Positions 1-16,007 of a stretch of 16,970 nucleotides of DNA are shown in pieces. The notes under the pieces were generated by a model that was given only the letters and a program-made list of their open reading frames with translations, searched no databases and was not told where the DNA came from. Source of the stretch: Candidatus Hermodarchaeota archaeon. GTDB taxonomy: Archaea > Asgardarchaeota > Lokiarchaeia > Sigyniarchaeales > SOKP01. The stretch lies in the NCBI GenBank assembly GCA_048885925.1, contig JBHLLG010000058.1, positions 1-16,970 on the forward strand. The letters are read 5' to 3'. The stretch's first letter is position 1. Every line of letters begins with the position of its first letter. The position numbers were made by a program, and so were the translations under genes.

Positions 1-1031
1 AAATCAGCTATTGTAGAAAAAGCGTAATTTACATTTTCTCCTTTTAGGGCGGAAGTTTCAATATACCCTAAATTTAATTCAGTTGCTAATTTTTGAATCA
101 TATCACTAGTTATTGTTCTTTGTCGTTTTAAATCAGATTTATTTCCGATGATAAATCCTATTAGTTCTTCTGATCGATCTTTTAGTTGATTGATTACATC
201 TGAGTACCATTTTGGGATAGTATTAAAAGTCTCAGTTCTTGTCATATCAAATACTAAGAAAACCGCATCTGACCCACGGTAAAATTGTTGTCTCATTGTC
301 TCGAACTTAACTTGGCCTCCGATGTCCCATAATGTTAATTGTATTACGGAGTCTTCAATTTTGAATATCTTGTCGCTGACCATTACTCCTAAGGTGGGTA
401 CGTAATTTCTTTTAAATGCATTATTAGTGTATCTTAATATTAATGAAGTTTTGCCAACATTTGGATCTCCAACTATGATTATTTTAAATTGGTAATCAAG
501 TAAACTCCGATCTCTTTTAGCTTCTGGGAACTCCTCTATTTGTTGCTGTTGAAATTCCTGCTGTTTTAATTCTTCTAGAAGAGTGGAAATATTGGAATTA
601 AGATTTTGAAGTAGATCAACAAAATCTTCTCTATGTGCTCTTGATTTTTCTAAATTTATGATTTCTTTAGATGTATTATTAAAAGTAATTGATAAATCAT
701 TCATATATTTATAAAATATTACATCATATGCTTCTTCGAATAATAATACAATAGCAGATTGACCAATTTCTCCTCTTCTTGAAGGATCTTTCCATTTAAG
801 ATATTTAATGAGTCCTTTTAAACTCATGGAAGGAAAAGGGAGTATGACTAAAGATTCTGGGATAAGTCCTTGTTCTCCTGTTAAAACAGTTAAAGCTTTT
901 ATACTAATATGAAGCAGATCCATCTGCGAAAATCTAGAAGTAAGCCAAGCTACTGGATTTGGTCCAAGTTCATCACTCATTTCTACATAAACGATCCCTG
1001 AGATTAATTCTTTTTCTATAGAACTCACCAT
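1..1031 (-). CDS. N-terminal longin/uDENN-like domain fused to a Rab/Ras-like small GTPase (3' end truncated by window edge)
   Basis: Not in the ORF track. Hand translation from ATG at 1031 is open to the window edge (343 codons): MVSSIEKELISGIVYVEMSDELGPNPVAW...ILPFPS...WKDPSRRGEIGQSAIVLLF...LKQQEFQQQQIEE...YQFKIIIVGDPNVGKTS (G1), YVPTLG (G2), LWDIGGQ (G3), FYRGSDAVFLVFD, IGNKSD (G4), ETSALKGENV (G5). The GTPase call is firm; the longin-like call for residues ~8-150 is inferred from pattern. Confidence 0.92.
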   Translation of the reverse strand, partial: MVSSIEKELISGIVYVEMSDELGPNPVAWLTSRFSQMDLLHISIKALTVLTGEQGLIPESLVILPFPSMSLKGLIKYLKWKDPSRRGEIGQSAIVLLFEEAYDVIFYKYMNDLSITFNNTSKEIINLEKSRAHREDFVDLLQNLNSNISTLLEELKQQEFQQQQIEEFPEAKRDRSLLDYQFKIIIVGDPNVGKTSLILRYTNNAFKRNYVPTLGVMVSDKIFKIEDSVIQLTLWDIGGQVKFETMRQQFYRGSDAVFLVFDMTRTETFNTIPKWYSDVINQLKDRSEELIGFIIGNKSDLKRQRTITSDMIQKLATELNLGYIETSALKGENVNYAFSTIAD

Positions 1032-1113
1032 TATAAAACTAACAAAAACTTAAAGAGCAAAATTTTAGCTATTATCTAATAATATAATTTTTTTATATTA
1101 AATATTGTTTGTT

Positions 1114-1123
1114 AAAAAAAAAA
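1114..1123 (-). terminator. Possible archaeal oligo(T) terminator after the 7-TM gene
   Basis: T10 run on the minus strand about 15 nt after the stop at 1138. Weak evidence in such AT-rich DNA. Confidence 0.3.
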
Positions 1124-1137
1124 GAGTTAAAAAATTT

Positions 1138-1845
1138 TTATTTTAATCCTACGTACATAAACCAAAAGCTACTTAGATACCCAATTCTAACTAAAATTAC
1201 CATAATTCCTGGAGCAGTTAATCCTTCTAACAAACCAAATATACAAAAACAAATCGACCCTATAGATAGGAAAAAGAAATTCTTACGTATAACTCCTGAG
1301 GATTGAAAGCCTTTATATAAAAACCCAAGACCCAGGAAAATTAAAACTGTTATTAACATAATCCCCATCAAAATTCCGGCAAGAGTCATTAAACTCACAT
1401 TGTAATCAATTAAATTTTCACTAGGCGGTGTTGGTGGTAATGGAACAAAATTAAAAGAACCTCTAGGATCTATAAATATTACTATTTCAAAGAATATGGT
1501 TAGGATCAAAAAAATAATGACAATGTATTTTTTCATTTTGGGTGCTAATAGTTCAGCACCAATATACATAGAGGTTATAATTACAGGAGCAAACCAAATA
1601 TATGACAAAATGCCAACAATCCCATTATTTACAATATTCTCTTGAAGAAATATTACAAATAGAAAATCTGTGAATACTCCTAAAAACATAAGACCTGCAA
1701 GTATATTAGCCAATCCTAAATATGTAAGCAATTCAGCTTGGATTTTTCTCGAATTGTAAATAAAGAATAAGCCAAAGATTATACCAAAAATTACTACACC
1801 TGAAGCTGTGATTCCGTCAATCCAACCATTAATATCTAATGCCAA
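1138..1845 (-). CDS. Seven-transmembrane membrane protein of unknown function (resembles a stand-alone 7TM sensor-like module)
   Basis: 235 aa, TTG start preceded by a GGGGGT purine tract, with an in-frame stop just upstream. Seven hydrophobic segments by eye, basic short loops (SRKIQ, PKMKK, VIRKN) and one Pro-rich loop (VPLPPTPPS). No soluble output domain. Confidence 0.8.
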   Translation of the reverse strand: MALDINGWIDGITASGVVIFGIIFGLFFIYNSRKIQAELLTYLGLANILAGLMFLGVFTDFLFVIFLQENIVNNGIVGILSYIWFAPVIITSMYIGAELLAPKMKKYIVIIFLILTIFFEIVIFIDPRGSFNFVPLPPTPPSENLIDYNVSLMTLAGILMGIMLITVLIFLGLGFLYKGFQSSGVIRKNFFFLSIGSICFCIFGLLEGLTAPGIMVILVRIGYLSSFWFMYVGLK

Positions 1846-1945
1846 GATTAAATTTTACCCCCATTTCTATTTTCATTTATTGGAAGAAAAGTCATTTTTT
1901 TTAAATTATTATATAATCATTTATTCTAATAAATAATAGCTTTAG

Positions 1946-2049
1946 TGGGAAAGGGGGGATTTGAACCCCCGACCATTACCAATTTGCTCCGAATGGAAGC
2001 AAAATCTTGGTCCCGGACCAAGTATCATACCAAACTAGACAACCTTCCC
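1946..2049 (-). tRNA. tRNA-Pro(CGG) with a 30-nt intron at non-canonical position 43/44
   Basis: Reverse complement folds as acceptor GGGAAGG/CTTTCCC + discriminator A, Pro-type D arm GTCTAGTTTGGTATGAT, anticodon stem CTTGG/CCAAG with loop TC-CGG-GA (anticodon at 2015-2013), T arm GGGGG-TTCAAAT-CCCCC. Removing 1976..2005 leaves a standard 5-nt variable loop TGGTC and a 74-nt tRNA. CCA is not encoded. Confidence 0.9.
1976..2005 (-). other. tRNA intron (30 nt) with a relaxed bulge-helix-bulge splice motif
   Basis: Intron ATTTTGCTTCCATTCGGAGCAAATTGGTAA: internal hairpin TTTGCT..AGCAAA, central 4-bp helix ACCA/TGGT and 3-nt bulges AG^A and AA^T. Cleavage after the second bulge base gives exactly these boundaries. 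Confidence 0.75.
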
Positions 2050-2149
2050 TTGATACATGATTTAATCTAAAAATAGTAACTTGGATTTAAAAAAATATTC
2101 TTTTTTTAAGATTTTTAGGGTAAAAAACTATAAATATTATTAACTTTTG

Positions 2150-2425
2150 TTAATCTTTAACTTTCTCTAAGATTGATATAATTCGATAAATAGTTGTGCG
2201 ACTATGAAATGGTACATTTGGATCTTGCGCCACATCTTCCACCATATACATTACATTACTGGCAAGGACTCCTGGAGTTTCATCTTCTCTATGCAATTCA
2301 TTAATGCCTCTTTGAGCAATCCGTTTTATATTTCTGGGAACACTCCTGTCATTTATCATTCCATTCAGAAGATATTCAACATTTTCAAAAGATTTTTTTT
2401 CTTCATCAGTTATAGCTCTTGGCAT
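2150..2425 (-). CDS. UPF0147 family protein (conserved archaeal)
   Basis: Family-typical DRSVPRNIKR and QDPNVPFHSRTTIYRIISILE motifs. ATG at 2425 preferred to the GTG at 2437. Confidence 0.88.
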   Translation of the reverse strand: MPRAITDEEKKSFENVEYLLNGMINDRSVPRNIKRIAQRGINELHREDETPGVLASNVMYMVEDVAQDPNVPFHSRTTIYRIISILEKVKD

Positions 2426-2518
2426 TGAAAATATCACCAGAAAGTATTTTGTAGGGATAAAAAGTATAAGAAGTAAAATAATTTTTAAAATTTAATTTTT
2501 TTGATTTTGAGAAAAGAA

Positions 2519-5431
2519 TTAATATATCCCAAATTCCCGAATTTCTTGTTTAAGCTCTGGAACATTTTCTCCGATCTCTTTAATTCTATTTTGATAATTA
2601 GTGAAAAAATCTTGAAATTGCTCATTTTTTCCTTGATTAATTTTTTTTACAAAATCATAAGACATTTGTTGGATTGTGTCAAATATTTGATTAAAATTTT
2701 CAGTAGAACTTAATAGTTTTTGATTTACTATTTTACCTTGTTTCCTTACCATATTTCGAAGTTTTCCACGAGGAATCCGTATTTTTTCTAATAAATTATC
2801 ACATTCATGGAGAAAATCATAAGATTGGGCTTTATTATTATCATCTAATTTTGCTTCAATTATTTCAGTTCTCCATGTGTTAATTCTTCCGCTTGCAAAG
2901 GTGTCAAAATTTAAGGAAATGGAGTCTATTCCTTCTCGTACTAAAAATCTTAGAAAATCGGGATCATCACTAGGTGCTTGACCACAAATTCCTACTTTTT
3001 TACTAAATTCATGGGCAGTTTTTATTAAGTGGCTAACAGATCTCCTAATTGCTTCACTATTAGTTGTATAAGCATATTCTTTAGCTATCGGAAGTAGTCT
3101 TGCTTCATCCCTGTCAACTCCAAATGTCAATTGAGTCAAGTCATTCGAACCTATTGAAAATCCATCAAAATATTTACAAAATGTATCTGCACAAATAATA
3201 TTTGAAGGAATTTCAGCCATTACATAGACTTTTAAATCATCTTCTCCGCGAATTAGTCCTTCACTCTCCATAATTTGTATTATTTCTCTCCCCTCTTCTG
3301 GAGAACGACAGAAGGGAACCATTGGGACAATATTTTTTAATCCCCAATCACGAGCTTTTTTAATTGCTCTTAATTCTAACATAAATGCATTTTGAAAGTC
3401 ATTAGAAACATATCGAGAAGCTCCTCGGAATCCCATCATTGGATTGTGTTCTTCTTCTTCATAAATCCATCCTCCAATTAAATTAGCATATTCATTAGTC
3501 TTAAAATCTGACAATCTTACTACACATTCAGCAATAATCCCATCTTTTAATTCTTTCCATACCCCCGCTGCGATAGTTGCTATCCCTTCTGCTAATTTCT
3601 CAATATAGAATTGCTCTTTATTATCATAACCTATAGTTAAAATTCTAATTTTGTCAAGAGTTTTTTTTAATTTTAAAATTTGTTGATTAAATGGATCTTT
3701 ATGGTAGAGATCACTTTTTTTGATATTTTCTATCCTTTTCCGTTGTTCTAATAAGATATCATATCTCATAATCAAAGCTTCAAAATCTATTAGAGCATTA
3801 GGATGAATCTGGATCTCGTCATTTATAATAAACTCTAATCTTGCTAGACCCGTTCCATCAGGATATTTTCCTGAAGATAAAGCTCCTTTAGGAATTCCTA
3901 AATTCACTAATACTTTTGTTCTTGTCGATGGCAATTTTGCGAATTCAATCGTATCAAAATCATATTCTACATCTTTTAACCATATTCTTGGCTCACCTTC
4001 ACTACAATCAATAGTAACATATTCAATCCCATCACGTTGTTTTTCTTTCATTGCTTGAATAATATTATCAGCTCCAACAATAGAAGCTATATTCAATTCT
4101 CTTGATACAATCGCAGCATGACAAGTAGGACCTCCTCTTTCTGTAATTACACCACCTAAGTTTTGCATATACGAAGTCCAATCTGGATTAGTCTCTTCAG
4201 TTATCAGAATATCTCCTTCCCTGAGTAAATGAGCATCGTTTATATTTTCTATTATTTTAATTTTTCCATATCCAATTCTACGTCCAATAGCTATCCCTGA
4301 ATTTTCAATTAATATCCCCTCTTTAACTAAGCTGTTTGGATCTTCAAGAAGGTAAAAAATTTCTTCGACATCACCCTTGATACTATGCACTGTTTCAGGA
4401 CGAGCTTGTACGATATATACTTTTCCGTCGTTACTAACTGCCCACTCAATATCCATCCTCCGCCCATAATGTTCGCGAATTTTTTGGGCATAATTAGCTA
4501 ATGTTATAACTTCATCATCAGACAAACAATACTTCATTTGGTGATCTAGAGGTACATGAACTACCTCAGTTCCAATCTTACCAGTTCCTTTTAAAAATAC
4601 CATCATCTTCTCTTTTTTAACTAATTCACGACGAATAATCCTAAGTCCTCTTGGATCATGCTTAAATACAAGAAATTCATCTCCTTTTTCTACTCCTTGG
4701 ACAATTAATTCTCCAAGACCCCATGTACCCCTAATAGCTACAACATTCAAATTTCCACTATCGGGATCTTCAGTAAACATAACACCAGAAGATTTAACAC
4801 CTCCAAGTCCACCTGCCATTTCTTGCACTCCTACACTAAGTTTTACGGCAAAGTGATCAAAACCTGCTCGTTCTCTATACATCGTTGCTCGTGTTGTAAA
4901 TACTGATGCCATATCTTTCAAGATATATTCCAATATTTGCTTTTCTCCCGCTATATTCAGGTGAGTATCTTGTTGGCCTGCAAAAGAGGCATCAGGTAGA
5001 TCCTCTGCTGTAGCAGAGCTTCTGACTGCGAAGGTGGTTTCTTCACCAATTTTTTCTAATAACTTATTATATGCATCTAATATCTCATCAGCAAGAGAAT
5101 CAGGAATTTTTGCTTGTTCAATAATATAACGGATGTTTGCACAGATTTTATCAACTTTCTCAACAGCTTTAATATCCTCGGATTTTAACTCATTAGATAT
5201 TCTTTTAATGTCTTGAGCAATTAATTCTCTAAGTGATATTTCTTTTTCCTTAATGGTAAAGTAATTTGTGTCTAAAATGTAATCAAATGCGTTTGCAGTT
5301 ACAGCAAAACCAAGAGGAACAACTATTCCAAAGCTTAATAGCTCTCCTAAAGAAGCATTCTTACCTCCAACGAGAGCTAAATCATTAACTCTCAAATCTT
5401 CAAAGAACTTGATATATCTATATTCATTCAT
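2519..5431 (-). CDS. ppsA: Phosphoenolpyruvate synthase (pyruvate, water dikinase) with extra helical insertion and C-terminal extension
   Basis: VGGKNASLGEL, AVRSSATAEDLPDASFAGQQDT, DIEWA, IVQARPETVHS, phospho-His motif GGPTCHAAIVSRE, GLARLEFII, NPMMGFRGASRY, FSIGSNDLTQL, GICGQAPSD. Confidence 0.97.
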   Translation of the reverse strand: MNEYRYIKFFEDLRVNDLALVGGKNASLGELLSFGIVVPLGFAVTANAFDYILDTNYFTIKEKEISLRELIAQDIKRISNELKSEDIKAVEKVDKICANIRYIIEQAKIPDSLADEILDAYNKLLEKIGEETTFAVRSSATAEDLPDASFAGQQDTHLNIAGEKQILEYILKDMASVFTTRATMYRERAGFDHFAVKLSVGVQEMAGGLGGVKSSGVMFTEDPDSGNLNVVAIRGTWGLGELIVQGVEKGDEFLVFKHDPRGLRIIRRELVKKEKMMVFLKGTGKIGTEVVHVPLDHQMKYCLSDDEVITLANYAQKIREHYGRRMDIEWAVSNDGKVYIVQARPETVHSIKGDVEEIFYLLEDPNSLVKEGILIENSGIAIGRRIGYGKIKIIENINDAHLLREGDILITEETNPDWTSYMQNLGGVITERGGPTCHAAIVSRELNIASIVGADNIIQAMKEKQRDGIEYVTIDCSEGEPRIWLKDVEYDFDTIEFAKLPSTRTKVLVNLGIPKGALSSGKYPDGTGLARLEFIINDEIQIHPNALIDFEALIMRYDILLEQRKRIENIKKSDLYHKDPFNQQILKLKKTLDKIRILTIGYDNKEQFYIEKLAEGIATIAAGVWKELKDGIIAECVVRLSDFKTNEYANLIGGWIYEEEEHNPMMGFRGASRYVSNDFQNAFMLELRAIKKARDWGLKNIVPMVPFCRSPEEGREIIQIMESEGLIRGEDDLKVYVMAEIPSNIICADTFCKYFDGFSIGSNDLTQLTFGVDRDEARLLPIAKEYAYTTNSEAIRRSVSHLIKTAHEFSKKVGICGQAPSDDPDFLRFLVREGIDSISLNFDTFASGRINTWRTEIIEAKLDDNNKAQSYDFLHECDNLLEKIRIPRGKLRNMVRKQGKIVNQKLLSSTENFNQIFDTIQQMSYDFVKKINQGKNEQFQDFFTNYQNRIKEIGENVPELKQEIREFGIY

Positions 5432-5543
5432 TTTAAAGTGAAACGGTTAAACGTAAATTATACTTAGAATTTTTCTAAATAATAATTATTATTCTTCTGA
5501 TTATAAATTAAACGTTAATAAAAAAAGTAACCCCATCCTTTAA

Positions 5544-6071
5544 TTAATTTAACTCGTTATCGAAAACAGCATAATCAGAAGTCGTAAATAGACAAAAAAT
5601 TACTTTTTTAATTTGGGTGTCCCCTTGTAAGTATTCTTTTGTTGTATTAATCATTATTTTAGCACAGCGATCAATGGGATATCCAAAAATTCCTGTTGAT
5701 ATAGCTGGAAATGCGATAGATTTAAGCTTTTTTTCATCCATTATTTTTAAACTATTAAGTGTTGCATTCCTTAGTTTGTTATCTTCATTTCCTTCTCCCA
5801 TTCTTGGACCTACTGCATGAATTACATATTTAGCTTTAAGATTTCCTCCAGTTGTTATAACAGCACCTCCAACAAAAGTACCTCCTATTTTATTACATTC
5901 TTCTTGAATTTTTTGACCTCCTTTTTTTCTGATAGCACCAGCCACACCCCCTCCTAATATGAGTTGAGCATTAGCAGCATTTACAATAACATCTGTGTCT
6001 AATTCCGTTATATCTCCTTGAACTAATTTAATTATTGATTCTTTTATCTTCAGTTCTTTCATTTTTAACAT
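5544..6071 (-). CDS. Macrodomain protein (MacroD/YmdB/AF1521-like ADP-ribose binding or hydrolase)
   Basis: QGDIT, DVIVNAAN, GGGVAGAI, VIHAVGP, SIAFPAISTGIFGYP. Confidence 0.95.
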   Translation of the reverse strand: MLKMKELKIKESIIKLVQGDITELDTDVIVNAANAQLILGGGVAGAIRKKGGQKIQEECNKIGGTFVGGAVITTGGNLKAKYVIHAVGPRMGEGNEDNKLRNATLNSLKIMDEKKLKSIAFPAISTGIFGYPIDRCAKIMINTTKEYLQGDTQIKKVIFCLFTTSDYAVFDNELN

Positions 6072-6121
6072 CTACTCAAAAGTTTTATTAATAAAAGTTA
6101 AAAAAGAAAAATTAGCTAAAT

Positions 6122-6841
6122 TTATTCTTCAACACGGCTCTTTTTAAAAATTTCATTTAATTTTTCGCGATCTTCTTCACTCATTTTACTCATAGCTTCC
6201 ATGTTTTGCCTCATTAAATCCATCATAATTTTCTGAGAAATCATTTGATTTAATACAGGTAAGGCAATCCTCATTCGAGTTAGTTCATAGTGCATTGTCT
6301 TTGCAGTTTCTCGCATCTCTTTCAAATCTTCCTTCGTCATTCCTTCTTCACCTATACCAGGGCAATCCGCATCAACAACGATAAAATTCTTTCCATCGAA
6401 TTCTAAAGGATATGTACGACAACTTAATGGACGGTTATCATATACCAAACATTTCTTATCATCTTTATTATAGAGCGGACATTTTACATCAAGTAATTCT
6501 TCGATAGGGACACTTACAAAAGGATCTTTTGGAGTTTTTTCTTCTCCTTCTTTTTCTTCTTTGGGAGGTGGTGCTAATGGTTTTAAGATGAGATCAATAC
6601 CTCCATCAGGTTTGTTATATATATCTAAATAGGGCATAAAGTTAGCGATAACTCCACTTCTTGCCCACATCTCTAAATCCCAAAAAGTTATAGGGATTGG
6701 ACCTCTTTTAGCACAGCAATTGTCGCAACGTGTACATTTAAATGAAAATTTTGCCTTTGATTTTTCTTCTGATGTTTCCTTTTCTTCTTTTTCAATATCT
6801 TGAGTATTGGGACTTTGATTCTCTTCACTATCTTCTGGCAT
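6122..6841 (-). CDS. YkgJ/UPF0153 family CxxCxxCC cysteine-cluster protein
   Basis: FKCTRCDNCC, CPLY...CLVYDNRPLSCRTYP and a final CPG. Acidic N-terminus and Met-rich helical C-terminus. Confidence 0.9.
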   Translation of the reverse strand: MPEDSEENQSPNTQDIEKEEKETSEEKSKAKFSFKCTRCDNCCAKRGPIPITFWDLEMWARSGVIANFMPYLDIYNKPDGGIDLILKPLAPPPKEEKEGEEKTPKDPFVSVPIEELLDVKCPLYNKDDKKCLVYDNRPLSCRTYPLEFDGKNFIVVDADCPGIGEEGMTKEDLKEMRETAKTMHYELTRMRIALPVLNQMISQKIMMDLMRQNMEAMSKMSEEDREKLNEIFKKSRVEE

Positions 6842-6960
6842 GATAAGGTTCTCTTTATTTAAATATTTTAAATATTATTATATTTGATTGTTATTAGAAA
6901 GAAGAATATAACCTAGAAAAAAAATTTTATTTTTGTTTAAAATAAATTAATATGAAATTT

Positions 6961-7560
6961 TTAAGATATTATAAACAAGTCATTATTATTTAACAACCAA
7001 CCAAGAGTTTTTAGTGCTGGTTCTATTAATTTTTCTTCTCTGATTCCAGTAAGTACTATTTTACCATTACTAAATATTAGAAAAACAGATTTAATTGGAT
7101 TATTTAATTTAAATGTTAATCCAGGAAAAACTTCTGGCTCAAAAATCGTATTTTCAAGTACAGTTGCAGCTAAATCTAAATTAATTTTTCTGAAAAAATC
7201 TGCGGTTATAACTATATTTACTATTTCTGGAATTATTAAACTTGTATTTATATAAATTCCACAATTTTCATGTAATTTCATAGATAATCTCATTAAACTT
7301 AAATTCACATGCTCAAATGATTTTAATCCAGTCATTATAATTTTACTATTTCTAAAAATGATAAATACGCATTTTGGATGCTTAAATCTTATAAAAAGCC
7401 CTGGAAAACGTTCTGGGTTATATTCTGTATCTATTAATTTATCACGTATTTTATTTAAATCAAGCTTTCCTTCGATATTTAAAGAGGTTTTTACAACGAT
7501 ATTCTCAATAGTATATGTTAAACTTTTAATTTCATCTTTTGATTTTATATCAAGATCCAT
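6961..7560 (-). CDS. tbp: TATA-box binding protein (probably a divergent paralogue)
   Basis: Two TBP repeats: IENIVV...YNPERFPGL...IFRNSKIIMTG and IVNIVI...FEPEVFPGL...LIFSNGKIVLTG. Confidence 0.93.
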   Translation of the reverse strand: MDLDIKSKDEIKSLTYTIENIVVKTSLNIEGKLDLNKIRDKLIDTEYNPERFPGLFIRFKHPKCVFIIFRNSKIIMTGLKSFEHVNLSLMRLSMKLHENCGIYINTSLIIPEIVNIVITADFFRKINLDLAATVLENTIFEPEVFPGLTFKLNNPIKSVFLIFSNGKIVLTGIREEKLIEPALKTLGWLLNNNDLFIIS

Positions 7561-7869
7561 TAATGGACTCCAATTTTTTTGTTAGTTAAAGCTTTTTCTT
7601 AAATTATTAAGGTCGCATTCTATTTAACTCTACTTTTTCATTTTTACTTAAATTTTGATAATCAAAAAGCGCTTATAGATTAAATTTTATTTTAATGTTT
7701 AAAAACTGTCGAAATAATTTAGAAAAGATAAGATAAAAATCCCTATTAAATACAATATACAATATTATAAAAAATAAAATTAATGCAAAATATTTTTAAA
7801 TCTCTGTAATAAACAATTTTAATCAAGTTTAATTTGCACTTTTATATTTAAAATATAATTAAAGTTATT

Positions 7870-8103
7870 ATGAAACAACTTACTTTGAAAAAACTATATA
7901 TCTGGTTAATGCTTACTCTTAATTTATTATTTGCTTTTGTAATTGGGTTTACAATTCCTTTACTCCAATCTGATAGTTATTACAATTTAGGGTATGTAAT
8001 GATTCCATTATTAGTAATTCTTAATTATATAATCTTAGATAGGTTTCATTATTATCTACGGCATTCAAATGAACTTGAGAGGAATGAAAATGCAGATATT
8101 TAG
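7870..8103 (+). CDS. Small two-TM membrane protein
   Basis: 77 aa, ATG start, two hydrophobic segments and a charged tail. Overlaps the start of the archaeosortase gene. Confidence 0.7.
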   Translation: MKQLTLKKLYIWLMLTLNLLFAFVIGFTIPLLQSDSYYNLGYVMIPLLVILNYIILDRFHYYLRHSNELERNENADI

Positions 8104-8980
8104 TAATTTGAGAAAAATCAAAAAACCTATTATTGAATATAATGAAAGAAAGTATATTTTTTCCATTAGATCAATAATTATTTTATCGATTTGTGCTCCA
8201 TTGTCAGCCTATCTAGTATATTTATTTTTTGATATGCAAATCAATTATTGGCTTCATGAAATTGTTGTAAAGCAAACAGTATTTTTCTTAAATTTGTTTT
8301 TTAATATAGGGGCTGTAGCTGAATTTGCTCCAAGTGGAAAATACCATTGGAGATTTTTGATTCCTGGAAAAAATCCCATATATTTCGAAACATTTTGTAC
8401 TGGAGTTCAAGCAATTGTTATATTTGTTGGTATAATTGTCTTTACACCTCATAGTCAAGATCAAAGTGCTAAAGAAGATATTATTTGGAGAAAGACAAAA
8501 GCGCTCATTATTTCATCAATTATATTCTATGTGATAAATATTATTAGAATGCTAATTCAAATTGACCTATATTACATCGGTTATGCCTGGGAAGATATAC
8601 ATTTTTCAATCAGCGCTGCAAGTTCCTTTATAGCAGCAATTATAGTTCTCTTGATGCATAAGTGGATTCCTGAATTTATAATCTCCATAATATATGTTGG
8701 AACTCTTGTAAGTGAACCAGTAAAAAAAAAGCGAAAAGAGAAAATTAAAACTATCCTTGAAACGTCAAATAAAATTGAATTCAAATTGATGCAAAAAGTA
8801 TTAAGAGTGGATAAAAAAAATTTTCATGGTAAAATTACGGAATGGGCAGAAGATTTTGGATACTCCATTGAAGAAAATTATATTGTTATCCCAAATACGA
8901 AAAAACCACACTTTATAGAATTGCTTATGATGGATAAACCTTTTTCCAAACAGGTTTCTAAAAATATGAAAGAAAAATAG
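8084..8980 (+). CDS. Archaeosortase/exosortase family transpeptidase with an extra soluble C-terminal domain
   Basis: Multi-TM protein with Cys in ETFCTG, Arg in INIIR and His in WEDIH, matching the Cys-Arg-His triad of the family. Start uncertain (ATG at 8069, 8084 or 8090, same frame). Confidence 0.85.
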   Translation: MKMQIFSNLRKIKKPIIEYNERKYIFSIRSIIILSICAPLSAYLVYLFFDMQINYWLHEIVVKQTVFFLNLFFNIGAVAEFAPSGKYHWRFLIPGKNPIYFETFCTGVQAIVIFVGIIVFTPHSQDQSAKEDIIWRKTKALIISSIIFYVINIIRMLIQIDLYYIGYAWEDIHFSISAASSFIAAIIVLLMHKWIPEFIISIIYVGTLVSEPVKKKRKEKIKTILETSNKIEFKLMQKVLRVDKKNFHGKITEWAEDFGYSIEENYIVIPNTKKPHFIELLMMDKPFSKQVSKNMKEK

Positions 8981-9038
8981 AATAGAAATATCATTTAATT
9001 TTTAATTAAATATTTTAAAAAATTAAAATTGATGAAAT

Positions 9039-9941
9039 ATGTTAAATTTTGAAACTGAGCAAAAAATATTACAAATTGGTAATGTTAGATTAGGTGGTCA
9101 ACCTGGAGAAAATCCAATTGTAATGATTGGAACTGTATTTTATGCAAGACATTCAGCTTTACTCGATGAAAAAACAGGTAGAATTGATAAAAATATTGTT
9201 GAACAAGAATTAAACGAATTTTCTTCTCTTATTGAGGAGTCTAAATTACAAGGGATAATTGATGTTGTTGGTGCATATCCAGAAGCACTAATTAAGGAAT
9301 GTGAATTTATTGCTGAGAATGTAGACTTTCCTTTTCTAGTGGATGGGTTAAACGACTCTTCTCGTATACCCGCTATGAAGGGATTAGGCGAAATTGGATT
9401 ATTAGATAGAGCTATCTTAAATAGTATTGATGAGAATACAAATGATGAAAATCTAGAAGTATTGAAAGAAATCGGAGTTAAAAATGCTGTTTTATTAACA
9501 TTTGGAAATAGATATATATTTCCGAAGCAAAAAGTTAAATTCTTAAAAGATACGCTGATTCCAAGAGCTGAACAAGCAGGAATTGATAATAAAATTGTTG
9601 ATACTGCTGTTTTGGATTTACCCTCGATTGCTATTAATTTTGAAACTGTAAGATTGGTAAAGAATGAATTAGGATTACCAACAGGATTTGCTCCTGCTAA
9701 TGCAATTTATGCGTGGAATTTTGTGAAAAGGTATGGGGAAAATCCTCGTTGTGGAGCCATTGCTTCAATTATGACTTACTGTGCTTCTGCACCGAGTGAT
9801 TTTATTTTATTTGGTCCACTAAAATTTGCAAAATGCGTGATACCGTCCATTGCACTAATTTCTGGAGTTAACTCCTACTACAGAAAAAGAGTATTAAGAA
9901 AAGAAATATTTGAACAATCACCTTTAAATGTAATTTTTTAA
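9039..9941 (+). CDS. mtrH: MtrH-family methyltransferase (tetrahydromethanopterin S-methyltransferase subunit H / MtgA-like), stand-alone
   Basis: Family-typical N-terminus FETEQKILQIGNVRLGGQPGENPIVMIGTVFY, plus PFLVD, ILNSI, IVDTAV, GFAPANA and DFILFGP. Confidence 0.9.
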   Translation: MLNFETEQKILQIGNVRLGGQPGENPIVMIGTVFYARHSALLDEKTGRIDKNIVEQELNEFSSLIEESKLQGIIDVVGAYPEALIKECEFIAENVDFPFLVDGLNDSSRIPAMKGLGEIGLLDRAILNSIDENTNDENLEVLKEIGVKNAVLLTFGNRYIFPKQKVKFLKDTLIPRAEQAGIDNKIVDTAVLDLPSIAINFETVRLVKNELGLPTGFAPANAIYAWNFVKRYGENPRCGAIASIMTYCASAPSDFILFGPLKFAKCVIPSIALISGVNSYYRKRVLRKEIFEQSPLNVIF

Positions 9942-11440
9942 GCTATATACCTTAAAAGCAAATCTTTTGTATAATTTAAGAAGGATGATAATTCAATATT
10001 AATAATCTCTTTTTTATTCTCATCATCTATCAAAAATAATAGAAACATATTATTTTCTTCAATTTGAATTCTTTTAAAAAGAATGATTGAATTAGAGACT
10101 TTAAATATTGCTTCCTCTTTTTGTAGTGCCTTAAATTTGGCAAAAATATTAAATAACATTGCAAATTGAGGTGCAGAGACTTCAAAAACATTCAAAATTT
10201 CTGATTTTGGAATTTTAATCAATTGGATTGTCTGATCATTATAAAAATTTGCTAATACTAATCCATCAGTAGATAATAATAAAGTGAGATTAACTTTTGT
10301 TATTAGAGAAAAATTTCTAAGGTTATGATTTATAATTTCTCTATTTGGGCTTAATTTCGAGATTCCTGAGGAAAAAGCTCTTAAAATTGTAAATACTTGA
10401 AAAATACTTGTTAAATATGTCTCAGGAGGACCATCTGGAGTAATTTTATTCAATCTTTTTTTAATAGATTCAATATTTTCTTTAATTTCAATTGAATTTA
10501 AAACGTCCAAATCTGCTTTTGATAAAATGTATATTATTGGAGTGTTTTGATTAAAATCTTTTAGAATTTTTTTAATATTTAAGAGATATTCTATACTTTC
10601 TTCAAATCTGTTTTTATTTTTAATATCGATAAAAAAGAACATCAAATCAGCTTCATACAAATAAATCTCAGCTTTGCTGATATATTTTTCCCGAAATTTT
10701 CGTTGGCCTCCTAAATCCCATAAAAATATAGTAGCACCTAATGCTTCAATAGATGTGATGCTTGCACCTGTTGTTGGCTTTAAACCTATCAATTTGCTAT
10801 ATTGTTTATCAATACTTAATAGGAAACTTGTTTTACCCGAATCATCAAGACCAGAAAAAAGTATTTTTAATTTTCTGTGTGAAGTTATTGGTGTAGAGGG
10901 GCTTTTTTCTATTTCAAATAAGTTAAATAGAAGATTATGGAAATATTGTTCAAGATCTTCGAACGGGGGGTAACTTTCATTTAATAAATTATCAAGTTCA
11001 TTGAAAAAGCTTATAATTAAAGGCTTTAATCTATTTATATTATTATATAAAAAGCTTCGGCTTTTTTCCTCAACTAAAATAGAAAATGCAGTTGGAATAG
11101 GATTATTTGATGAATCTGTCCTAATAAAATGAAAATAAGTAAGCGAAGTTGTCTTAAAATCAGGATAAGGTAATATTGCAAAATATTGGATATTTTCAAG
11201 GTTTTTTTCTTCGCTAACTATCTTATCGCTGATAAACAAACTCAGATTTTTTATAGAAATCTGAGTTACATCCCTATAAGTTAATGTCAGAAGTTTTCTT
11301 TCTTCTCTCTCTTTATGGATTTCACTAAATACTTTGTCACTAACATAATTTGGGAACATATAAATAGGTTGAGGACCCATTTCACCATAAACACTGAAGA
11401 CATAACCTTTTACAATCGAATTTTCAATAAGTTCTTCCAT
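9938..11440 (-). CDS. Three-domain protein: longin/uDENN-like domain, Arf/Rag-like small GTPase, roadblock-like C-terminal domain
   Basis: G1 GLDDSGKT, G2 KPTTG, G3 WDLGGQ, G4 SKAD, G5 TSIF. N-terminal GYVFSVYGEMGPQP..ISIK..ILPYP matches the N-terminus of the 1..1031 protein. C-terminal LLLSTDGLVLA is roadblock-like. Confidence 0.88.
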   Translation of the reverse strand: MEELIENSIVKGYVFSVYGEMGPQPIYMFPNYVSDKVFSEIHKEREERKLLTLTYRDVTQISIKNLSLFISDKIVSEEKNLENIQYFAILPYPDFKTTSLTYFHFIRTDSSNNPIPTAFSILVEEKSRSFLYNNINRLKPLIISFFNELDNLLNESYPPFEDLEQYFHNLLFNLFEIEKSPSTPITSHRKLKILFSGLDDSGKTSFLLSIDKQYSKLIGLKPTTGASITSIEALGATIFLWDLGGQRKFREKYISKAEIYLYEADLMFFFIDIKNKNRFEESIEYLLNIKKILKDFNQNTPIIYILSKADLDVLNSIEIKENIESIKKRLNKITPDGPPETYLTSIFQVFTILRAFSSGISKLSPNREIINHNLRNFSLITKVNLTLLLSTDGLVLANFYNDQTIQLIKIPKSEILNVFEVSAPQFAMLFNIFAKFKALQKEEAIFKVSNSIILFKRIQIEENNMFLLFLIDDENKKEIINIELSSFLNYTKDLLLRYIA

Positions 11441-11526
11441 GGTTTTAAAATAAATACAAGTAATTTTTTAATTTCTTAAATTAATGTAAGCAAATTTTAT
11501 TATTAATAGCTTTATATTTAAATTAG

Positions 11527-12489
11527 ATGTTTCTCAAAAAAATTGCTGAGACTATTACTAGTAATAAAGATATTATTGAAAAGAAAGATATTAGTCCAAT
11601 AATCGAATTCATCGATAAGAACTCTTTTAAAAGTCAAAAAATTTTCTCTGATATAGGAGAAGATTCAGCAGCGATAACAAATAAAGATAACTTTATCCTA
11701 ATTACTACAGACAGAATTAAAACTAGTTTTGTTGAGAATTTTCCTTATGGAGCGGGTTTTAGTGCAATAGTAGTTGGAGTAGATGATATTTATTGCTGTG
11801 GTGGATTTCCTTTAGCAGCAAGTTTAATTATATCATATAAAGAAGATGTAATTGGAAAGCAAATCATAGATGGTGTTTGTGAAGGTTCTAGGAAGTTTAA
11901 TGTACCGATCGTACGAGGTCATACAAACCCTAGAGGGGATTATTATGAATTAAGTTCTACTATGATTGGAGAAATTAACAGAGATCACTATATTTCGGCA
12001 AAAAATGCACAAGTTAATGACAATATAATTTTAGCTGTAGATTTTGATGGAAAAGTTGGAAAAGCAAGTAATTTATATTGGGATACTGTAACTTTTAAAA
12101 CTTCAAAAGAGGTTTTGAATAAAAGGAAATCGATGAATGAAATTGCTAAATTGCAAATAGCTAATTCTTCTAAAGATATATCTAATGGAGGTATATTTGG
12201 CACCATATTACAATTAATTAAATTCTCTGAAGTAGGAGCAGATATTAATATTAATCAAATTAGTATTCCTCCTAGATTAATTGAAAAAGACTATTCACTA
12301 GATACTTATATTAAAATGTATTTAACCACCTCCTACATTTTAACAGTCCCTAAAAAAAATAGTAAGATGGTATTAGAAATATTTAGTAAATTCGGATTAG
12401 ATGCAAAGATTATAGGGATAATTATAAAAGAAAAAAATCTCCTAAAGGTAAATGATGGGAAGAAATCCATTGATGTATTACGATTTTAA
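11527..12489 (+). CDS. AIR synthase (PurM-like) superfamily protein, selenophosphate-synthetase-related / methanogenesis marker 2-like
   Basis: IGEDSA, ITTD, GVDDIYCCGGFP, VPIVRGHT, SKDISNGGIFG. The exact subfamily cannot be resolved by eye. Confidence 0.8.
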   Translation: MFLKKIAETITSNKDIIEKKDISPIIEFIDKNSFKSQKIFSDIGEDSAAITNKDNFILITTDRIKTSFVENFPYGAGFSAIVVGVDDIYCCGGFPLAASLIISYKEDVIGKQIIDGVCEGSRKFNVPIVRGHTNPRGDYYELSSTMIGEINRDHYISAKNAQVNDNIILAVDFDGKVGKASNLYWDTVTFKTSKEVLNKRKSMNEIAKLQIANSSKDISNGGIFGTILQLIKFSEVGADININQISIPPRLIEKDYSLDTYIKMYLTTSYILTVPKKNSKMVLEIFSKFGLDAKIIGIIIKEKNLLKVNDGKKSIDVLRF

Positions 12490-12581
12490 ATTCAATTTAA
12501 AGTTAAAATTGCTTGATTTATAAATGTTAATTTATAAAATACAAGAAATAAAAAATTAAAAACTTAAATTAAATATTTAAA

Positions 12582-15031: not shown

Positions 15032-15038
15032 AATTTAA

Positions 15039-16007
15039 TTGGAAAAAGATCTAAAGCAGTCTATTCTATATCTTAAAAAAGAACCACCGAAAGAAGTTGC
15101 GGTTTCAAAGATTTTATTCACAGGATTGGACAATGCCGGTAAAACAAGCATTATTATGTCACTACAGAGAGAATTTTCTAAAATTGCGATTTTATCTCCT
15201 ACTCGAGGTGCACAGAAGCGAATATTTGAATTTTTGGGCAAGGAAATAAGTGAATGGGATCTTGGAGGTCAATTAAGTTATAGAATTGCCTATTTGAAAA
15301 ATCCAGGTAAATATTTTGAAGGAACAGAAGTAGCAATTTATGTTATTGATGTTCAAAACAAACCTAGAATTCCTGAAGCAATAAGTTATTTCAAGGATGT
15401 AATAGAACAGTTCAAGAAGTTAGAGATTGAACCTCCAATTTATGTATTTTTACATAAATATGATCCAGCTCTAAGAAGAAGCGCTCAAAATGAATTGAAA
15501 GCCTTCGTAATAGATCTAAAAGATAAATTAAGAGCGACTGAATATAAAGAATTGTTTTATTATGAAACGTCTATTTATGATTTTTCTTCTCTCATAACAG
15601 CTATGTCTGAAATTCTCTTAAGTCTTTATCCTAAATCAGAGTTGATAGAAAAGACGATTATAGAGTTTGCAAAGAAAGTTAATTCTGAAGGAGTCGTAGT
15701 AATTGATGACAATTCGCTAATAATTGGCTCTTATTATAAAGATGATGAAACTAGGCACCTTCTGACTGCCAGCATGCCTTACTTTTTAACTCTTCATGAT
15801 CACATGCAATTCACAGGTGTAATGGAAGAGAAATATGAGGATAAGATGATTGTTCAAAAATTCGGAAAGAACTTCATATTTAAACAAATAATGCTCAAAA
15901 AGGATGCAGTACCTTATTATTTATTACTACTTAAGGAAGAGCCAGTGTTTCGAAAAGAAGATCTTGAATCTTTTGCAAATTTGTTAAGAGAAATTCTCTA
16001 TAAGTAA
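15039..16007 (+). CDS. Rag/Gtr-like (Arf-related) small GTPase with C-terminal roadblock domain
   Basis: G1 GLDNAGKT, G2 SPTRG, G3 WDLGGQ, G4 LHKYD, G5 ETSIYD, followed by ~125 aa with a roadblock pattern (IEFAKKVNSEGVVVIDDNSLIIGS). HKxD, TSIYD and a C-terminal roadblock are hallmarks of Rag GTPases. Confidence 0.9.
   Translation: MEKDLKQSILYLKKEPPKEVAVSKILFTGLDNAGKTSIIMSLQREFSKIAILSPTRGAQKRIFEFLGKEISEWDLGGQLSYRIAYLKNPGKYFEGTEVAIYVIDVQNKPRIPEAISYFKDVIEQFKKLEIEPPIYVFLHKYDPALRRSAQNELKAFVIDLKDKLRATEYKELFYYETSIYDFSSLITAMSEILLSLYPKSELIEKTIIEFAKKVNSEGVVVIDDNSLIIGSYYKDDETRHLLTASMPYFLTLHDHMQFTGVMEEKYEDKMIVQKFGKNFIFKQIMLKKDAVPYYLLLLKEEPVFRKEDLESFANLLREILYK

What the first reader, a model, noticed from the sequence alone, without database searches (positions are those of the whole stretch)
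580..1031. Longin-like domain with an FLCN/SMCR8-type arginine-finger motif fused in cis to a Rab-like GTPase
Seen: residues 81-87 (nt 791-771) read KDPSRRG between two predicted beta strands (LIKYLKW / QSAIVLLF), followed by a long helix, a Gln-rich linker and a Rab-like G domain that keeps the switch II Gln (DIGGQ). Established: the longin domains of folliculin (Arg164), SMCR8 (Arg147) and NPRL2 (Arg78) supply a catalytic arginine finger to Rag or Arf GTPases; from memory the FLCN loop reads KDSLARG and SMCR8 DLEARG, the same D-x3-RG spacing. Inference: Arg86 may be an ancestral arginine finger, making this a self-regulating GTPase or a cascade element where one GTPase carries the GAP for another, such as the Rag-like proteins in this window. 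The gene is invisible in the supplied ORF track.
Basis: partly seen in the sequence, partly recalled or inferred. Interest (0 to 1): 0.85.

Follow-up and report, generated by a model that had tools for sequence, protein, structure and literature searches.

The report
Arginine-finger longin fused to Rab-like GTPase
An Asgard archaeal gene joins a Rab-like molecular switch to a folliculin/NPRL2-type longin domain that carries the conserved arginine which eukaryotes use to turn such switches off; recent papers had largely foreshadowed this combination.

Summary
Window 3-1031 (-) encodes a 350-aa protein cut by the contig start, and residues 81-87 read KDPSRRG. AlphaFold2 models residues 1-165 at pLDDT 94.7 with longin topology, and R86 lies in the beta4-beta5 hairpin loop. 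After an Asgard longin (8yqg, Z 19.4), the best solved matches are Lst4, NPRL2, FLCN and C9orf72/SMCR8 (Z 11.4-13.4). SNARE and TRAPP longins score 9.6 or less.

The G23-P24 motif and R86-G87 are among 11 N-terminal columns at least 90% conserved in 104 longin-Rab homologues. Across 153 family rows, Arg is kept in 105 of 139 ungapped rows. The C-terminal half is Rab-like and keeps the switch II Gln.

A predicted complex of two longin copies and the G domain scored 0.85, best control 0.01. In it R86 touches P-loop N191 and switch I, and G23-P24 touches Q240.

Most likely reading: a built-in longin-type GAP acting within a dimer. No biochemistry exists. The protein does not match Pfam Folliculin or NPR2. 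Asgard longins with GP plus Arg, and longin-GTPase fusions, are already published. This is a solid, moderately novel variant.

The parts
3..1031 (-). Gene for the longin-coiled coil-Rab-like GTPase: residues 1-343 of 350. The last 7 codons and the stop lie before the window start, on contig C120.
645..1010 (-). Longin domain core, residues 8-129 (order beta-beta-alpha-beta-beta-beta-alpha-alpha).
   Evidence: AF2 pLDDT 94.7, pTM 0.89. VIA-align Z 19.4 to 8yqg and 11.4-13.4 to Lst4/NPRL2/FLCN/C9orf72-SMCR8. Profile hit to 8yqg at E 1.9e-4 to 1.6e-16.
960..965 (-). G23-P24 'GP motif' in the beta1-beta2 loop.
   Evidence: G 135 of 143 and P 130 of 143 ungapped rows. Touches Q240/K242 in the predicted complex. 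The motif is described for GAP longins in PMC12290439.
768..788 (-). beta4-beta5 hairpin loop D82-P-S-R-R86-G87-E88, with the candidate arginine finger R86 (nt 774-776).
   Evidence: R86 touches N191, V211 and P212 of the G domain in the predicted complex.
543..632 (-). Long helix alpha3, residues 134-163, ending in the Gln-rich stretch.
   Evidence: DSSP on the AF2 models.
498..542 (-). Flexible linker, residues 164-178.
   Evidence: pLDDT below 50 for residues 166-174.
3..497 (-). Rab-like G domain, residues 179-343 (to 350 beyond the window).
   Evidence: Pfam Ras E 3.8e-45. Foldseek hits to Rab3C/Rab1/Rab11/Rab4/Rab2/Rab8 at E about 1e-17, 29-38% identity.
447..470 (-). P-loop GDPNVGKT (188-195), with Pro at the position of Ras Gly12.
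   Evidence: sequence. G188, G193 and K194 are invariant in 104 sequences. Pro190 is present in 91 of 104.
312..326 (-). Switch II DIGGQ (236-240) with the catalytic Gln240.
   Evidence: D236 and G239 invariant, Q240 at least 90%. Q240 touches the GP motif in the predicted complex.
132..143 (-). G4 motif NKSD (297-300).
   Evidence: N297, K298 and D300 invariant.
9938..11440 (-). Context: 500-aa relative with a homologous longin domain that keeps GP but has no Arg, followed by a Rag-like G domain and a C-terminal domain.
15039..16007 (+). Context: 322-aa Rag-like GTPase without a longin domain.
   Evidence: Pfam Gtr1_RagA E 1.9e-26.

Best explanation
The gene encodes a two-module switch of an Asgard (Lokiarchaeia-type) archaeon. 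The first module is an N-terminal longin domain of the folliculin/NPRL2/SMCR8 (GAP) type. A long helix and a roughly 15-residue flexible linker join it to the second module, a Rab-like G domain.

Proposed mechanism: two longin domains pair, as in the solved homologue 8yqg, and form a cradle. A G domain sits on that cradle with its switch I and II regions. One longin copy inserts R86 from its beta4-beta5 loop next to the P-loop and the gamma-phosphate. The GP loop contacts the catalytic Gln240. GTP hydrolysis is thereby accelerated. The protein would therefore carry its own arginine-finger GAP and switch itself off when it dimerises, with itself or with the tandem paralogue.

Shown by computation: the fold, the motif positions, the conservation and the predicted interface.
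Inferred: dimerisation of this protein, catalysis by R86, and whether the finger works in cis or across the dimer.
For: Fold: residues 1-165 are modelled at pLDDT 94.7 and pTM 0.89, with strands 12-19, 23-30, 62-66, 71-81 and 89-99 and helices 36-51, 100-129 and 134-164.

Nearest solved folds:
- 8yqg, the longin of a Lokiarchaeota Roadblock-Longin protein: Z 19.4, rmsd 2.2 over 145 residues.
- Lst4 13.4, NPRL2 12.8, FLCN 12.7/12.0/11.7, C9orf72-SMCR8 entries 11.9/11.7, yeast Npr2 11.4.
- Sec22b 9.6, Ykt6 9.3, TRAPP 9.2 (Foldseek agrees).

The ESM Atlas structure search lists an archaeal Folliculin-bearing cluster (TM 0.83), NPRL2 (0.68) and SMCR8 (0.73).

Sequence link: a profile of four own-genome domains finds 242 representatives at E<=1e-3. 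Of 30 domain-only members, 7 match Pfam Folliculin. Two family members exceed the curated cut-off of 23.3 bits: P0259 at 28.7 and P0209 at 24.5. The matches cover beta4, the RG loop, beta5 and alpha2.

Conservation: G23, P24, R86 and G87 are among 11 N-terminal columns at least 90% conserved in 104 longin-Rab sequences. All 6 of 104 sequences that lost R86 also lost G23 or P24. In 3-4 independent contrasts, GP changed the same way in 2.8 on average and never the other way.

G domain: Pfam Ras E 3.8e-45, Rab-like fold, Q240 kept.

Predicted complex (two longin copies, the G domain, GTP and Mg):
- ipSAE 0.85; best of 3 controls 0.01.
- Calibration: the mark was reached by 58 of 80 solved complexes and 2 of 110 mismatched pairs. 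These counts hold only roughly here, because my own alignment was used and ligands rode along.
- The runs agree in at least 97% of contacts, and partner pLDDT is at least 90.
- Contacts: R86 with N191, V211 and P212; G87 with V211; G23/P24 of the same copy with Q240 and K242. The second copy contacts switch regions through its GP loop and alpha1.

The same geometry, with the GTPase cupped by two longins and one supplying the Arg, is described for C9orf72-SMCR8-ARF1 (PMC8213707, passages) and FLCN-FNIP2-RagC (PMC9473554, passages).
Against: - There is no experiment on this protein or any family member.
- The window protein does not match Pfam Folliculin or NPR2 at E<=1. In its genome only the C7 paralogue touches Folliculin (17.5 bits, below the cut-off), a level that 8 of 14 unrelated control genomes also reach. 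NPR2 finds nothing.
- Profile searches of PDB sequences reached only 8yqg and 8yqk, never FLCN, NPRL2 or SMCR8 at E<=10. Equivalence of R86 to R164/R78/R147 therefore rests on topology and the predicted complex, not on an alignment.
- The closest solved homologue, 8yqg, has no RG in this loop.
- Arg is missing in 34 of 139 ungapped family rows. The 6 longin-Rab proteins without it still keep Gln240, so the family can do without the finger.
- The full-length monomer model has pTM of only 0.60.
- The complex score may reflect the model's memory of solved longin-GAP complexes. It also assumed a homodimer.
- The co-loss test is underpowered (p 0.25).
- Pro at the Ras-Gly12 position might hinder a finger. 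That rests on recalled Ras biochemistry and was not tested.
Confidence: 0.55

Rival explanations
1. The longin domain is a dimerisation and docking platform, or an exchange factor or autoinhibitory module, for the G domain, as in TRAPP, Mon1-Ccz1 and DENN proteins or MglB-type roadblocks. R86 would then serve binding or loop stability, not catalysis.
For: - Most longin and roadblock modules act as GEFs or platforms (PMC10933270, introduction passages).
- Longin GEF and SNARE structures also align at Z 8.9-9.6.
- The nearest solved homologue 8yqg lacks RG.
- 34 of 139 family rows lack Arg.
- The predicted interface shows docking, not chemistry.
Against: - GAP-type longins score clearly higher (Z 11.4-13.4) than GEF or SNARE longins.
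- The GP motif is reported as specific to GAP longins and absent from TRAPP, DENND and adaptin longins (PMC12290439, passages). It is present and conserved here.
- An exposed loop Arg-Gly is at least 90% conserved in longin-Rab proteins and is predicted to touch the P-loop.
Confidence: 0.2
2. R86 is a finger for another GTPase in trans. Candidates are the Rag-like proteins encoded nearby (window 9938-11440 and 15039-16007). One route would be pairing of this Arg-bearing longin with the Arg-less, GP-bearing longin of the 500-aa protein, as SMCR8 pairs with C9orf72.
For: - Eukaryotic longin GAPs are heterodimers of an Arg-bearing and an Arg-less subunit, and C9orf72 keeps GP without Arg (PMC12290439, passages).
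- The window's 500-aa protein has exactly such a longin.
- Its orthologue lies 7-14 kb upstream on the same strand in 22 genomes listed in both.
- Eukaryotic relatives act on Rag and Arf GTPases.
Against:
- The genes between them (PPDK, macro domain, TBP, MtrH) are unrelated, and the genomes are close kin, so the synteny may be inheritance only.
- The protein's own G domain docks with high predicted confidence.
Confidence: 0.15
3. The conserved Arg-Gly has a role unrelated to GTPases, for example contact with an acidic lipid or another ligand, or simply a tight turn in the hairpin.
For: Basic loop residues are common in membrane-facing modules. R85 is also basic in 111 of 115 close homologues.
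Against: - R85 is not conserved across the family (27 R, 36 A and 37 gaps in 153 rows), whereas R86 is.
- Loss of R86 goes together with loss of the GP loop.
- The predicted contacts are with P-loop and switch residues.
Confidence: 0.05

Closest known systems
Eukaryotic longin-domain GAP subunits: NPRL2 (GATOR1), FLCN (FLCN-FNIP), SMCR8 (C9orf72-SMCR8-WDR41)
   Same: Longin fold with the best structural scores among eukaryotic proteins. GP motif in the beta1-beta2 loop and a conserved exposed Arg in a loop. In the predicted complex the GTPase is cupped by two longins, with one supplying the Arg next to the nucleotide, as in PMC8213707 and PMC9473554.
   Different: There is no DENN or NPRL2 C-terminal domain. 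Instead a helix and a Rab-like G domain are fused in cis. No Pfam Folliculin or NPR2 match for this protein. The known clients are Rag and Arf GTPases acting in trans. The known complexes are heterodimers with an Arg-less partner. Sequence identity in structural alignments is only 4-11%.
Asgard 'FLCN/SMCR8-type' longins with a GP motif and arginine finger (Traffic 2025, PMC12290439; passages read, supplement not seen)
   Same: Archaeal longins structurally close to GAP longins, with GP and Arg in the same arrangement. The authors ask which Asgard GTPases are their clients.
   Different: In the passages read, that paper describes 15 proteins, stresses Heimdallarchaeia and does not mention fusion to a GTPase (the word 'fused' occurs 0 times). 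Here the domain is fused to a Rab-like G domain in a family found mainly in Lokiarchaeia-type genomes. Whether any of the 15 belongs to this family is unknown, because its Data S1 is closed.
Longin-GTPase fusions of Asgard archaea (PMC10933270, section 7 read; bioRxiv 10.1101/2020.10.19.343400, passages)
   Same: A longin domain joined to a small GTPase in one polypeptide. NPRL2-like longins are noted as abundant in Asgard genomes.
   Different: In the text read, those fusions are described for the Rag-like class, and no catalytic Arg is discussed. Here the partner domain is Rab-like.
PDB 8yqg, longin domain of a Lokiarchaeota Roadblock-Longin protein (dimeric)
   Same: Nearest solved homologue by sequence profile (E down to 2.4e-27 for the Roadblock-Longin subclass, 1.9e-4 to 1.6e-16 for broader profiles) and by structure (Z 19.4). 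It carries the GP motif.
   Different: Its beta4-beta5 loop has no Arg-Gly (alignments). It is preceded by a roadblock domain and has no G domain. No paper on it was found in the library.
MglA-MglB (bacterial Ras-like GTPase with a roadblock-dimer GAP)
   Same: A prokaryotic small GTPase regulated by a dimer of the roadblock/longin superfamily that binds the switch face (PMC10933270, introduction).
   Different: MglB is a separate protein with a roadblock fold, not a longin fold. That it supplies no arginine finger is recalled, not checked here. MglB aligns only weakly in Foldseek (rank 44).

Membership tests
Longin domain fold | Five-stranded sheet with the order beta-beta-alpha-beta-beta-beta-alpha-alpha | tested here: met
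   DSSP on the AF2 model: E12-19, E23-30, H36-51, E62-66, E71-81, E89-99, H100-129, H134-164, at pLDDT 94.7. Z 19.4 to 8yqg and Z 8.5-13.4 to many longins.
GAP-type longins (FLCN / SMCR8 / NPRL2) | Structurally closer to these than to SNARE, TRAPP or adaptin longins | tested here: met
   Z 11.4-13.4 for Lst4, NPRL2, FLCN, C9orf72-SMCR8 entries and Npr2, against 9.6 or less for Sec22b, Ykt6 and TRAPP. Atlas rows agree.
GAP-type longins (FLCN / SMCR8 / NPRL2) | GP motif at the end of the beta1-beta2 loop (PMC12290439) | tested here: met
   G23-P24 lie before strand 23-30. G is 135 of 143 and P is 130 of 143 ungapped rows.
GAP-type longins (FLCN / SMCR8 / NPRL2) | Conserved surface Arg at the position of FLCN R164 / NPRL2 R78 / SMCR8 R147 | tested here: inconclusive
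   R86 is conserved (105 of 139 rows; at least 90% of 104), lies in a loop and touches the P-loop in the predicted complex. No residue-level alignment to the three human proteins was obtained. VIA-align gives ranges only (model 8..165 aligned to NPRL2 5..169).
GAP-type longins (FLCN / SMCR8 / NPRL2) | Match to Pfam Folliculin (PF11704) or NPR2 (PF06218) | tested here: not met
   No hit for the window protein at E<=1. In its own genome only the C7 paralogue reaches 17.5 bits, and NPR2 finds none. Relatives P0259 (28.7 bits) and P0209 (24.5 bits) pass the 23.3-bit cut-off, so the link is transitive only.
GAP-type longins (FLCN / SMCR8 / NPRL2) | C-terminal DENN domain (FLCN, SMCR8) or NPRL2-specific C-terminal domain | tested here: not met
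   Residues 179-350 are a Ras/Rab-type G domain.
GAP-type longins (FLCN / SMCR8 / NPRL2) | Heterodimer with an Arg-less longin partner | not tested
   Only a homodimeric longin pair was modelled. The tandem paralogue also carries RG. An Arg-less relative is encoded at window 9938-11440.
GAP-type longins (FLCN / SMCR8 / NPRL2) | Arg-dependent stimulation of GTP hydrolysis | not testable with these tools
   Needs a GTPase assay comparing wild type with R86A.
Rab-like small GTPase (Ras superfamily) | G1-G5 motifs and a Ras-family profile match | tested here: met
   GDPNVGKT 188-195, T213, DIGGQ 236-240, NKSD 297-300, ETSA 325-328. Pfam Ras E 3.8e-45, against Gtr1_RagA at 1e-6.
Rab-like small GTPase (Ras superfamily) | Fold closest to Rab structures | tested here: met
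   All top 50 listed Foldseek PDB hits are Rab/Ypt proteins, at E 1.2e-17 to 2.6e-16 and TM (target) 0.82-0.90.
Rab-like small GTPase (Ras superfamily) | C-terminal Cys prenylation motif of eukaryotic Rabs | tested here: not met
   The tail reads ...STIADLLYKSRI and has no Cys.

The most novel reading that the evidence does not exclude
This family preserves the ancestral state of the eukaryotic longin GAP systems: one polypeptide holding both the switch and its arginine-finger longin, which hydrolyses GTP only when two longins pair. The conserved tandem pair of longin-Rab paralogues would be a proto-heterodimer. So would the paired classes of longin-Rag fusions, one with Arg and one with GP only. 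GATOR1, FLCN-FNIP and C9orf72-SMCR8, and their free client GTPases, would have arisen from such proteins by gene fission. This would answer by 'Rosetta stone' logic which GTPases the Asgard GAP-type longins serve.
Probability: 0.3. Interest if true: 0.75.

Novelty: new variant of a known kind. Interest (0 to 1): 0.55.

Why it matters
Longin-domain GAPs (GATOR1, folliculin, C9orf72-SMCR8) control nutrient signalling and are disease genes. Their origin and their archaeal clients are open questions, raised explicitly in PMC12290439.

A GAP-type longin covalently fused to a Rab-like G domain names a likely client without any need to guess partners. Relatives fused to Rag-like G domains exist both with and without the Arg. 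This family is a small, soluble, single-chain system. In it the arginine-finger and GP-motif hypotheses can be tested with four mutants (R86A, G23A, P24A and Q240L). If the finger works, regulated small-GTPase switching by longin GAPs predates eukaryotes.

Tried and rejected
1. Sequence bridge to FLCN, NPRL2 or SMCR8. Three profiles (A2, A5, A6) and two single proteins (P0259, P0209) were searched against PDB sequences at E<=10. They found only 8yqg, 8yqk and coiled-coil noise.
2. Pfam on the window protein: nothing for residues 1-170. The Folliculin and NPR2 models over its own genome gave only a sub-threshold hit on paralogue C7 and none for NPR2.
3. Link between loss of R86 and the P-loop Pro190: no consistent direction (1.2 the same way, 0.3 opposite, 1.5 no change). 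Rejected.
4. Link between loss of R86 and loss of Gln240: all 6 Arg-less longin-Rab proteins keep Gln. There is no support for coupled decay of the G domain.
5. Search for a paper on 8yqg by its code returned only unrelated texts. A term search found none.
6. PMC10050129 and PMC6393612 are not held.
7. The sigma-70 promoter scan was uninformative for an archaeon (12 found, 13.4 expected).
Full report
**The observation**

The window is the first 16,970 bases of contig C58 of a 3.9-Mb genome that is 95% complete. An ORF on the minus strand runs from the ATG at 1031 to the window edge at 3, giving 343 aa. It is listed only when open-ended frames are allowed.

The last 77 bases of contig C120 are identical to window 1-77. 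Read in frame, they add LLYKSRI and a stop. The resulting 350-aa protein is present letter for letter in the protein collection as P0001.

Window 771-791 (-) translates to KDPSRRG, residues 81-87. Names on the closest database hits (Promethearchaeota, Lokiarchaeota, Thorarchaeota and others) place the gene in Asgard archaea.

**The C-terminal half**

Pfam Ras matches residues 183-342 at E 3.8e-45, far better than Arf (8.1e-15) or Gtr1_RagA (1e-6). The full-length AlphaFold2 model has pLDDT 85.1 and pTM 0.60. It finds Rab3C, Rab1, Rab11, Rab4, Rab2 and Rab8 structures at E about 1e-17, 29-38% identity and target TM 0.82-0.90.

The nucleotide motifs are intact: GDPNVGKT, T213, DIGGQ, NKSD and ETSA. 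Q240 is at least 90% conserved in 104 homologues. There is no C-terminal cysteine, so no Rab-type lipid anchor. The P-loop has Pro at the position of Ras Gly12, in 91 of 104 sequences.

**The N-terminal half: fold**

Pfam finds nothing in residues 1-170. A model of residues 1-165, built on 124 aligned relatives, is very confident (pLDDT 94.7, pTM 0.89). It has the longin order of elements: strands 12-19, 23-30, 62-66, 71-81 and 89-99, and helices 36-51, 100-129 and 134-164. R86 lies in the loop of the beta4-beta5 hairpin, and G23-P24 lies at the start of strand 2.

Foldseek against the PDB gives:
- 8yqg, the dimeric longin of a Lokiarchaeota Roadblock-Longin protein, first (E 5.9e-8).
- Then chains of about 363-370 residues from GATOR1 entries that I read as NPRL2 (E 1.3e-4).
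- Then yeast SEA-complex chains, DENND10, Lst4, SMCR8-C9orf72 and FLCN entries.

VIA-align on the same candidates gives:
- Z 19.4 for 8yqg.
- 13.4 for Lst4, 12.8 for NPRL2, 12.7/12.0/11.7 for FLCN entries, 11.9/11.7 for C9orf72-SMCR8 entries and 11.4 for Npr2.
- Only 9.6, 9.3 and 9.2 for Sec22b, Ykt6 and TRAPP longins.

The ESM Atlas structure search independently lists an archaeal cluster carrying Pfam Folliculin (TM 0.83), NPRL2 (0.68), SMCR8 (0.73) and a uDENN FLCN/SMCR8-type cluster (0.72). So the fold is a longin, and specifically of the GAP-type branch.

**The N-terminal half: sequence family**

The genome has three further copies of the domain:
- A tandem paralogue on C120: 346 aa, 45% identical, same architecture, loop DDTYRG.
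- A 487-aa protein on C7 with the longin, a Rag/Arf-like G domain and a C-terminal domain: loop PDVEARG.
- The window's own 500-aa Rag-like protein (9938-11440), whose longin keeps GP but has no Arg.

A profile of these four domains finds 242 representatives (50%-identity clusters) at E<=1e-3 among 1.84 billion proteins, and 153 at E<=1e-10. Among PDB sequences it finds only 8yqg (E 1.9e-4, falling to 1.6e-16 with a 30-sequence profile).

Of 30 domain-only members, 7 match Pfam Folliculin. P0259 (28.7 bits) and P0209 (24.5 bits) exceed the 23.3-bit cut-off. The matched stretch is profile positions 49-105, which is beta4, the RG loop, beta5 and alpha2.

The window protein itself does not match Folliculin or NPR2. 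In its genome only the C7 paralogue gives a sub-threshold 17.5 bits, a level also reached in 8 of 14 unrelated control genomes. The tie to the Folliculin family is therefore structural and transitive, not direct.

**Conservation of the motif**

In 115 full-length close homologues (of the 120 listed; 255 passed E<=1e-3), D82, R86 and G87 are 115 of 115 and R85 is 111 of 115. Many other columns are also invariant at that distance.

In 153 rows (150 representatives plus the query, with two proteins contributing two rows), counted over ungapped rows:
- G23 is 135 of 143.
- P24 is 130 of 143.
- R86 is 105 of 139.
- G87 is 99 of 141.
- D82 is 91 of 147.

In 104 longin-Rab sequences, only 11 N-terminal columns reach 90%: G23, P24, R86, G87, F98, E100, D103, Y107, K108, Y109 and E159.

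By architecture:

| Architecture | Rows | RG | R without G | No R | Gap |
|---|---|---|---|---|---|
| Longin-Rab | 48 | 40 | 2 | 6 | 0 |
| Longin-Rag | 30 | 10 (mostly 462-486 aa) | 3 | 14 (13 keep GP; mostly 479-682 aa) | 3 |
| No G domain found (fragments included) | 69 | 38 | 6 | 14 | 11 |
| Weak G-domain match | 6 | 6 | 0 | 0 | 0 |

The six longin-Rab proteins that lost R86 all lost G23 or P24 too, and all keep Q240. On a FastTree tree with the trait columns removed, Arg loss needs at least 4 changes. In 3-4 independent contrasts GP went the same way in 2.8 on average and never the opposite way. So few pairs cannot reach significance (p 0.25).

**How it may work**

One complex job was run: two copies of residues 1-165, one copy of residues 176-350 as the scored partner, plus GTP and Mg.
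- The score was 0.85 (three runs: 0.84, 0.85, 0.85), against 0.01 for the best of three controls.
- Calibration: the mark was reached by 58 of 80 solved complexes and 2 of 110 mismatched pairs. These counts hold only roughly, because my own alignment and riding ligands were used.
- The runs share at least 97% of contacts, and partner pLDDT is at least 90.

The confident interface is as follows:
- Longin copy 1: residues 18, 20, 22-24, 40-55 and 86-89/91.
- Longin copy 2: residues 18-24 and 36-52.
- G domain: residue 191 (P-loop), 207-220 (switch I), 233 and 240-253 (switch II).
- Named pairs: R86 with N191, V211 and P212; G87 with V211; G23/P24 of the same copy with Q240 and K242.

This is the arrangement reported for ARF1 on C9orf72-SMCR8, where both longins cup the GTPase and SMCR8 Arg147 points at BeF3 (PMC8213707, passages). 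It is also reported for RagC on FLCN-FNIP2, where the FLCN loop 10-16 and Arg164 are at the interface (PMC9473554, passages).

The tool warns that such a pass can come from likeness to solved complexes. It shows that the protein looks like a longin GAP bound to its client, not that it binds or catalyses. Whether the finger reaches the G domain of its own chain or of the partner chain cannot be told. The monomer model's pTM of 0.60 and the disordered 166-174 linker fit a mobile G domain.

**Genomic context**

With the N-terminal domain as query, 165 of 399 genomes of the phylum have a match at E<=1e-3. These include 130 of 133 in the window's family and nearly all families of its class, but only three other families of the phylum.

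Among the 150 match rows listed there, 30 genomes show two copies on one contig and strand, 1.1-4.3 kb apart. In 29 of these the better-matching copy is clearly upstream, and in one the two scores are nearly equal. The window's own genome shows the same order once C120 and C58 are joined.

The Arg-less longin-Rag gene has a match at E<=1e-15 in 52 of 60 sampled genomes of the class. It lies 7-14 kb upstream on the same strand in 22 genomes that appear in both lists. The genes between them are unrelated (PPDK, macro domain, TBP, MtrH), and the genomes are kin, so this is synteny, not an operon.

**Comparison with what is known**

- Longin-GTPase fusions in Asgard archaea are in print. [quoted passage not shown]
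- In MK-D1, 26 of 74 GTPases are combined with roadblock or longin domains. In the text these are described for the Rag-like class (PMC10933270, section 7).
[quoted passage not shown] That paper left open which GTPases they serve (PMC12290439, passages).
- In the passages I read, neither paper links an Arg-bearing GAP-type longin to a Rab-like G domain in one chain. The supplements that could hold this were closed.
- My library searches for 'Asgard + longin + arginine finger', 'Asgard + folliculin + GTPase' and 'Asgard + longin + GTPase + fused' returned no other paper that combines GAP-type longins with Asgard GTPases.

**Verdict**

The protein works like a longin GAP on present evidence. It is not a member of Pfam Folliculin or NPR2 by sequence, and it lacks their C-terminal domains. 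The novelty is moderate: a cis-fused variant of a kind already recognised, and useful mainly as a clean test system.

Noticed in passing
window 1946-2049 (-): Rfam finds a tRNA (RF00005, 45.2 bits) that spans 104 nt, so it probably holds an intron. ARAGORN in its default mode reported no tRNA in the window.
   Followed up: partly
L004:1203-2243 (-) = G000 contig C120, about 310 bp downstream of the finding's gene once the contigs are joined: Tandem paralogue: 346 aa, 45% identical, same longin-helix-Rab-like design, loop DDTYRG. The two-gene order recurs in 30 genomes among the rows listed, which suggests a conserved pair and possibly a heterodimer.
   Followed up: partly
window 9938-11440 (-): A 500-aa protein whose longin keeps the GP motif but has no Arg and carries an insert of about 20 residues after strand 2. 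It is followed by a Rag-like G domain and a C-terminal domain. Among 30 longin-Rag representative rows, 10 have RG and 14 have no Arg (13 of these keep GP). This recalls the Arg-bearing/Arg-less pairs SMCR8/C9orf72, FLCN/FNIP and NPRL2/NPRL3.
   Followed up: partly
L007:153-1616 (+) = G000 contig C7: A 487-aa paralogue with an Arg-bearing longin (PDVEARG), a Gtr1/RagA-type G domain (E 6e-25) and a C-terminal region. It is the only protein of this genome that touches Pfam Folliculin (16.5-17.5 bits, below the cut-off).
   Followed up: partly
window 3-16007, compared: The longin-Rab gene and the Arg-less longin-Rag gene keep the same order and strand, 7-14 kb apart, in 22 related genomes, with housekeeping genes (PPDK, macro domain, TBP, MtrH) between them.
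   Followed up: partly
window 447-470 (-), residues 188-195: The P-loop reads GDPNVGKT: Pro occupies the position of Ras Gly12 in 91 of 104 longin-Rab homologues. Two stand-alone Rab-like genes of the same genome (L003:1481-2035 and 2219-2791) have Ala or Gly there. No link to loss of the Arg was found.
   Followed up: partly
proteins P0216, P0234, P0235, P0261, P0265, P0269 and others (about 287 aa): A subclass with an N-terminal roadblock domain (profile hit to PDB 8yqk, E 9.5e-4) followed by an Arg-bearing longin (8yqg, E 2.4e-27). The solved Roadblock-Longin protein itself lacks the Arg.
   Followed up: no
proteins P0222 and P0203: Family members in which the GP/RG longin is followed by a winged-helix DNA-binding domain (HTH_24 at 8.9e-5; TrmB at 1e-12). 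This hints at transcriptional outputs for the same module.
   Followed up: no
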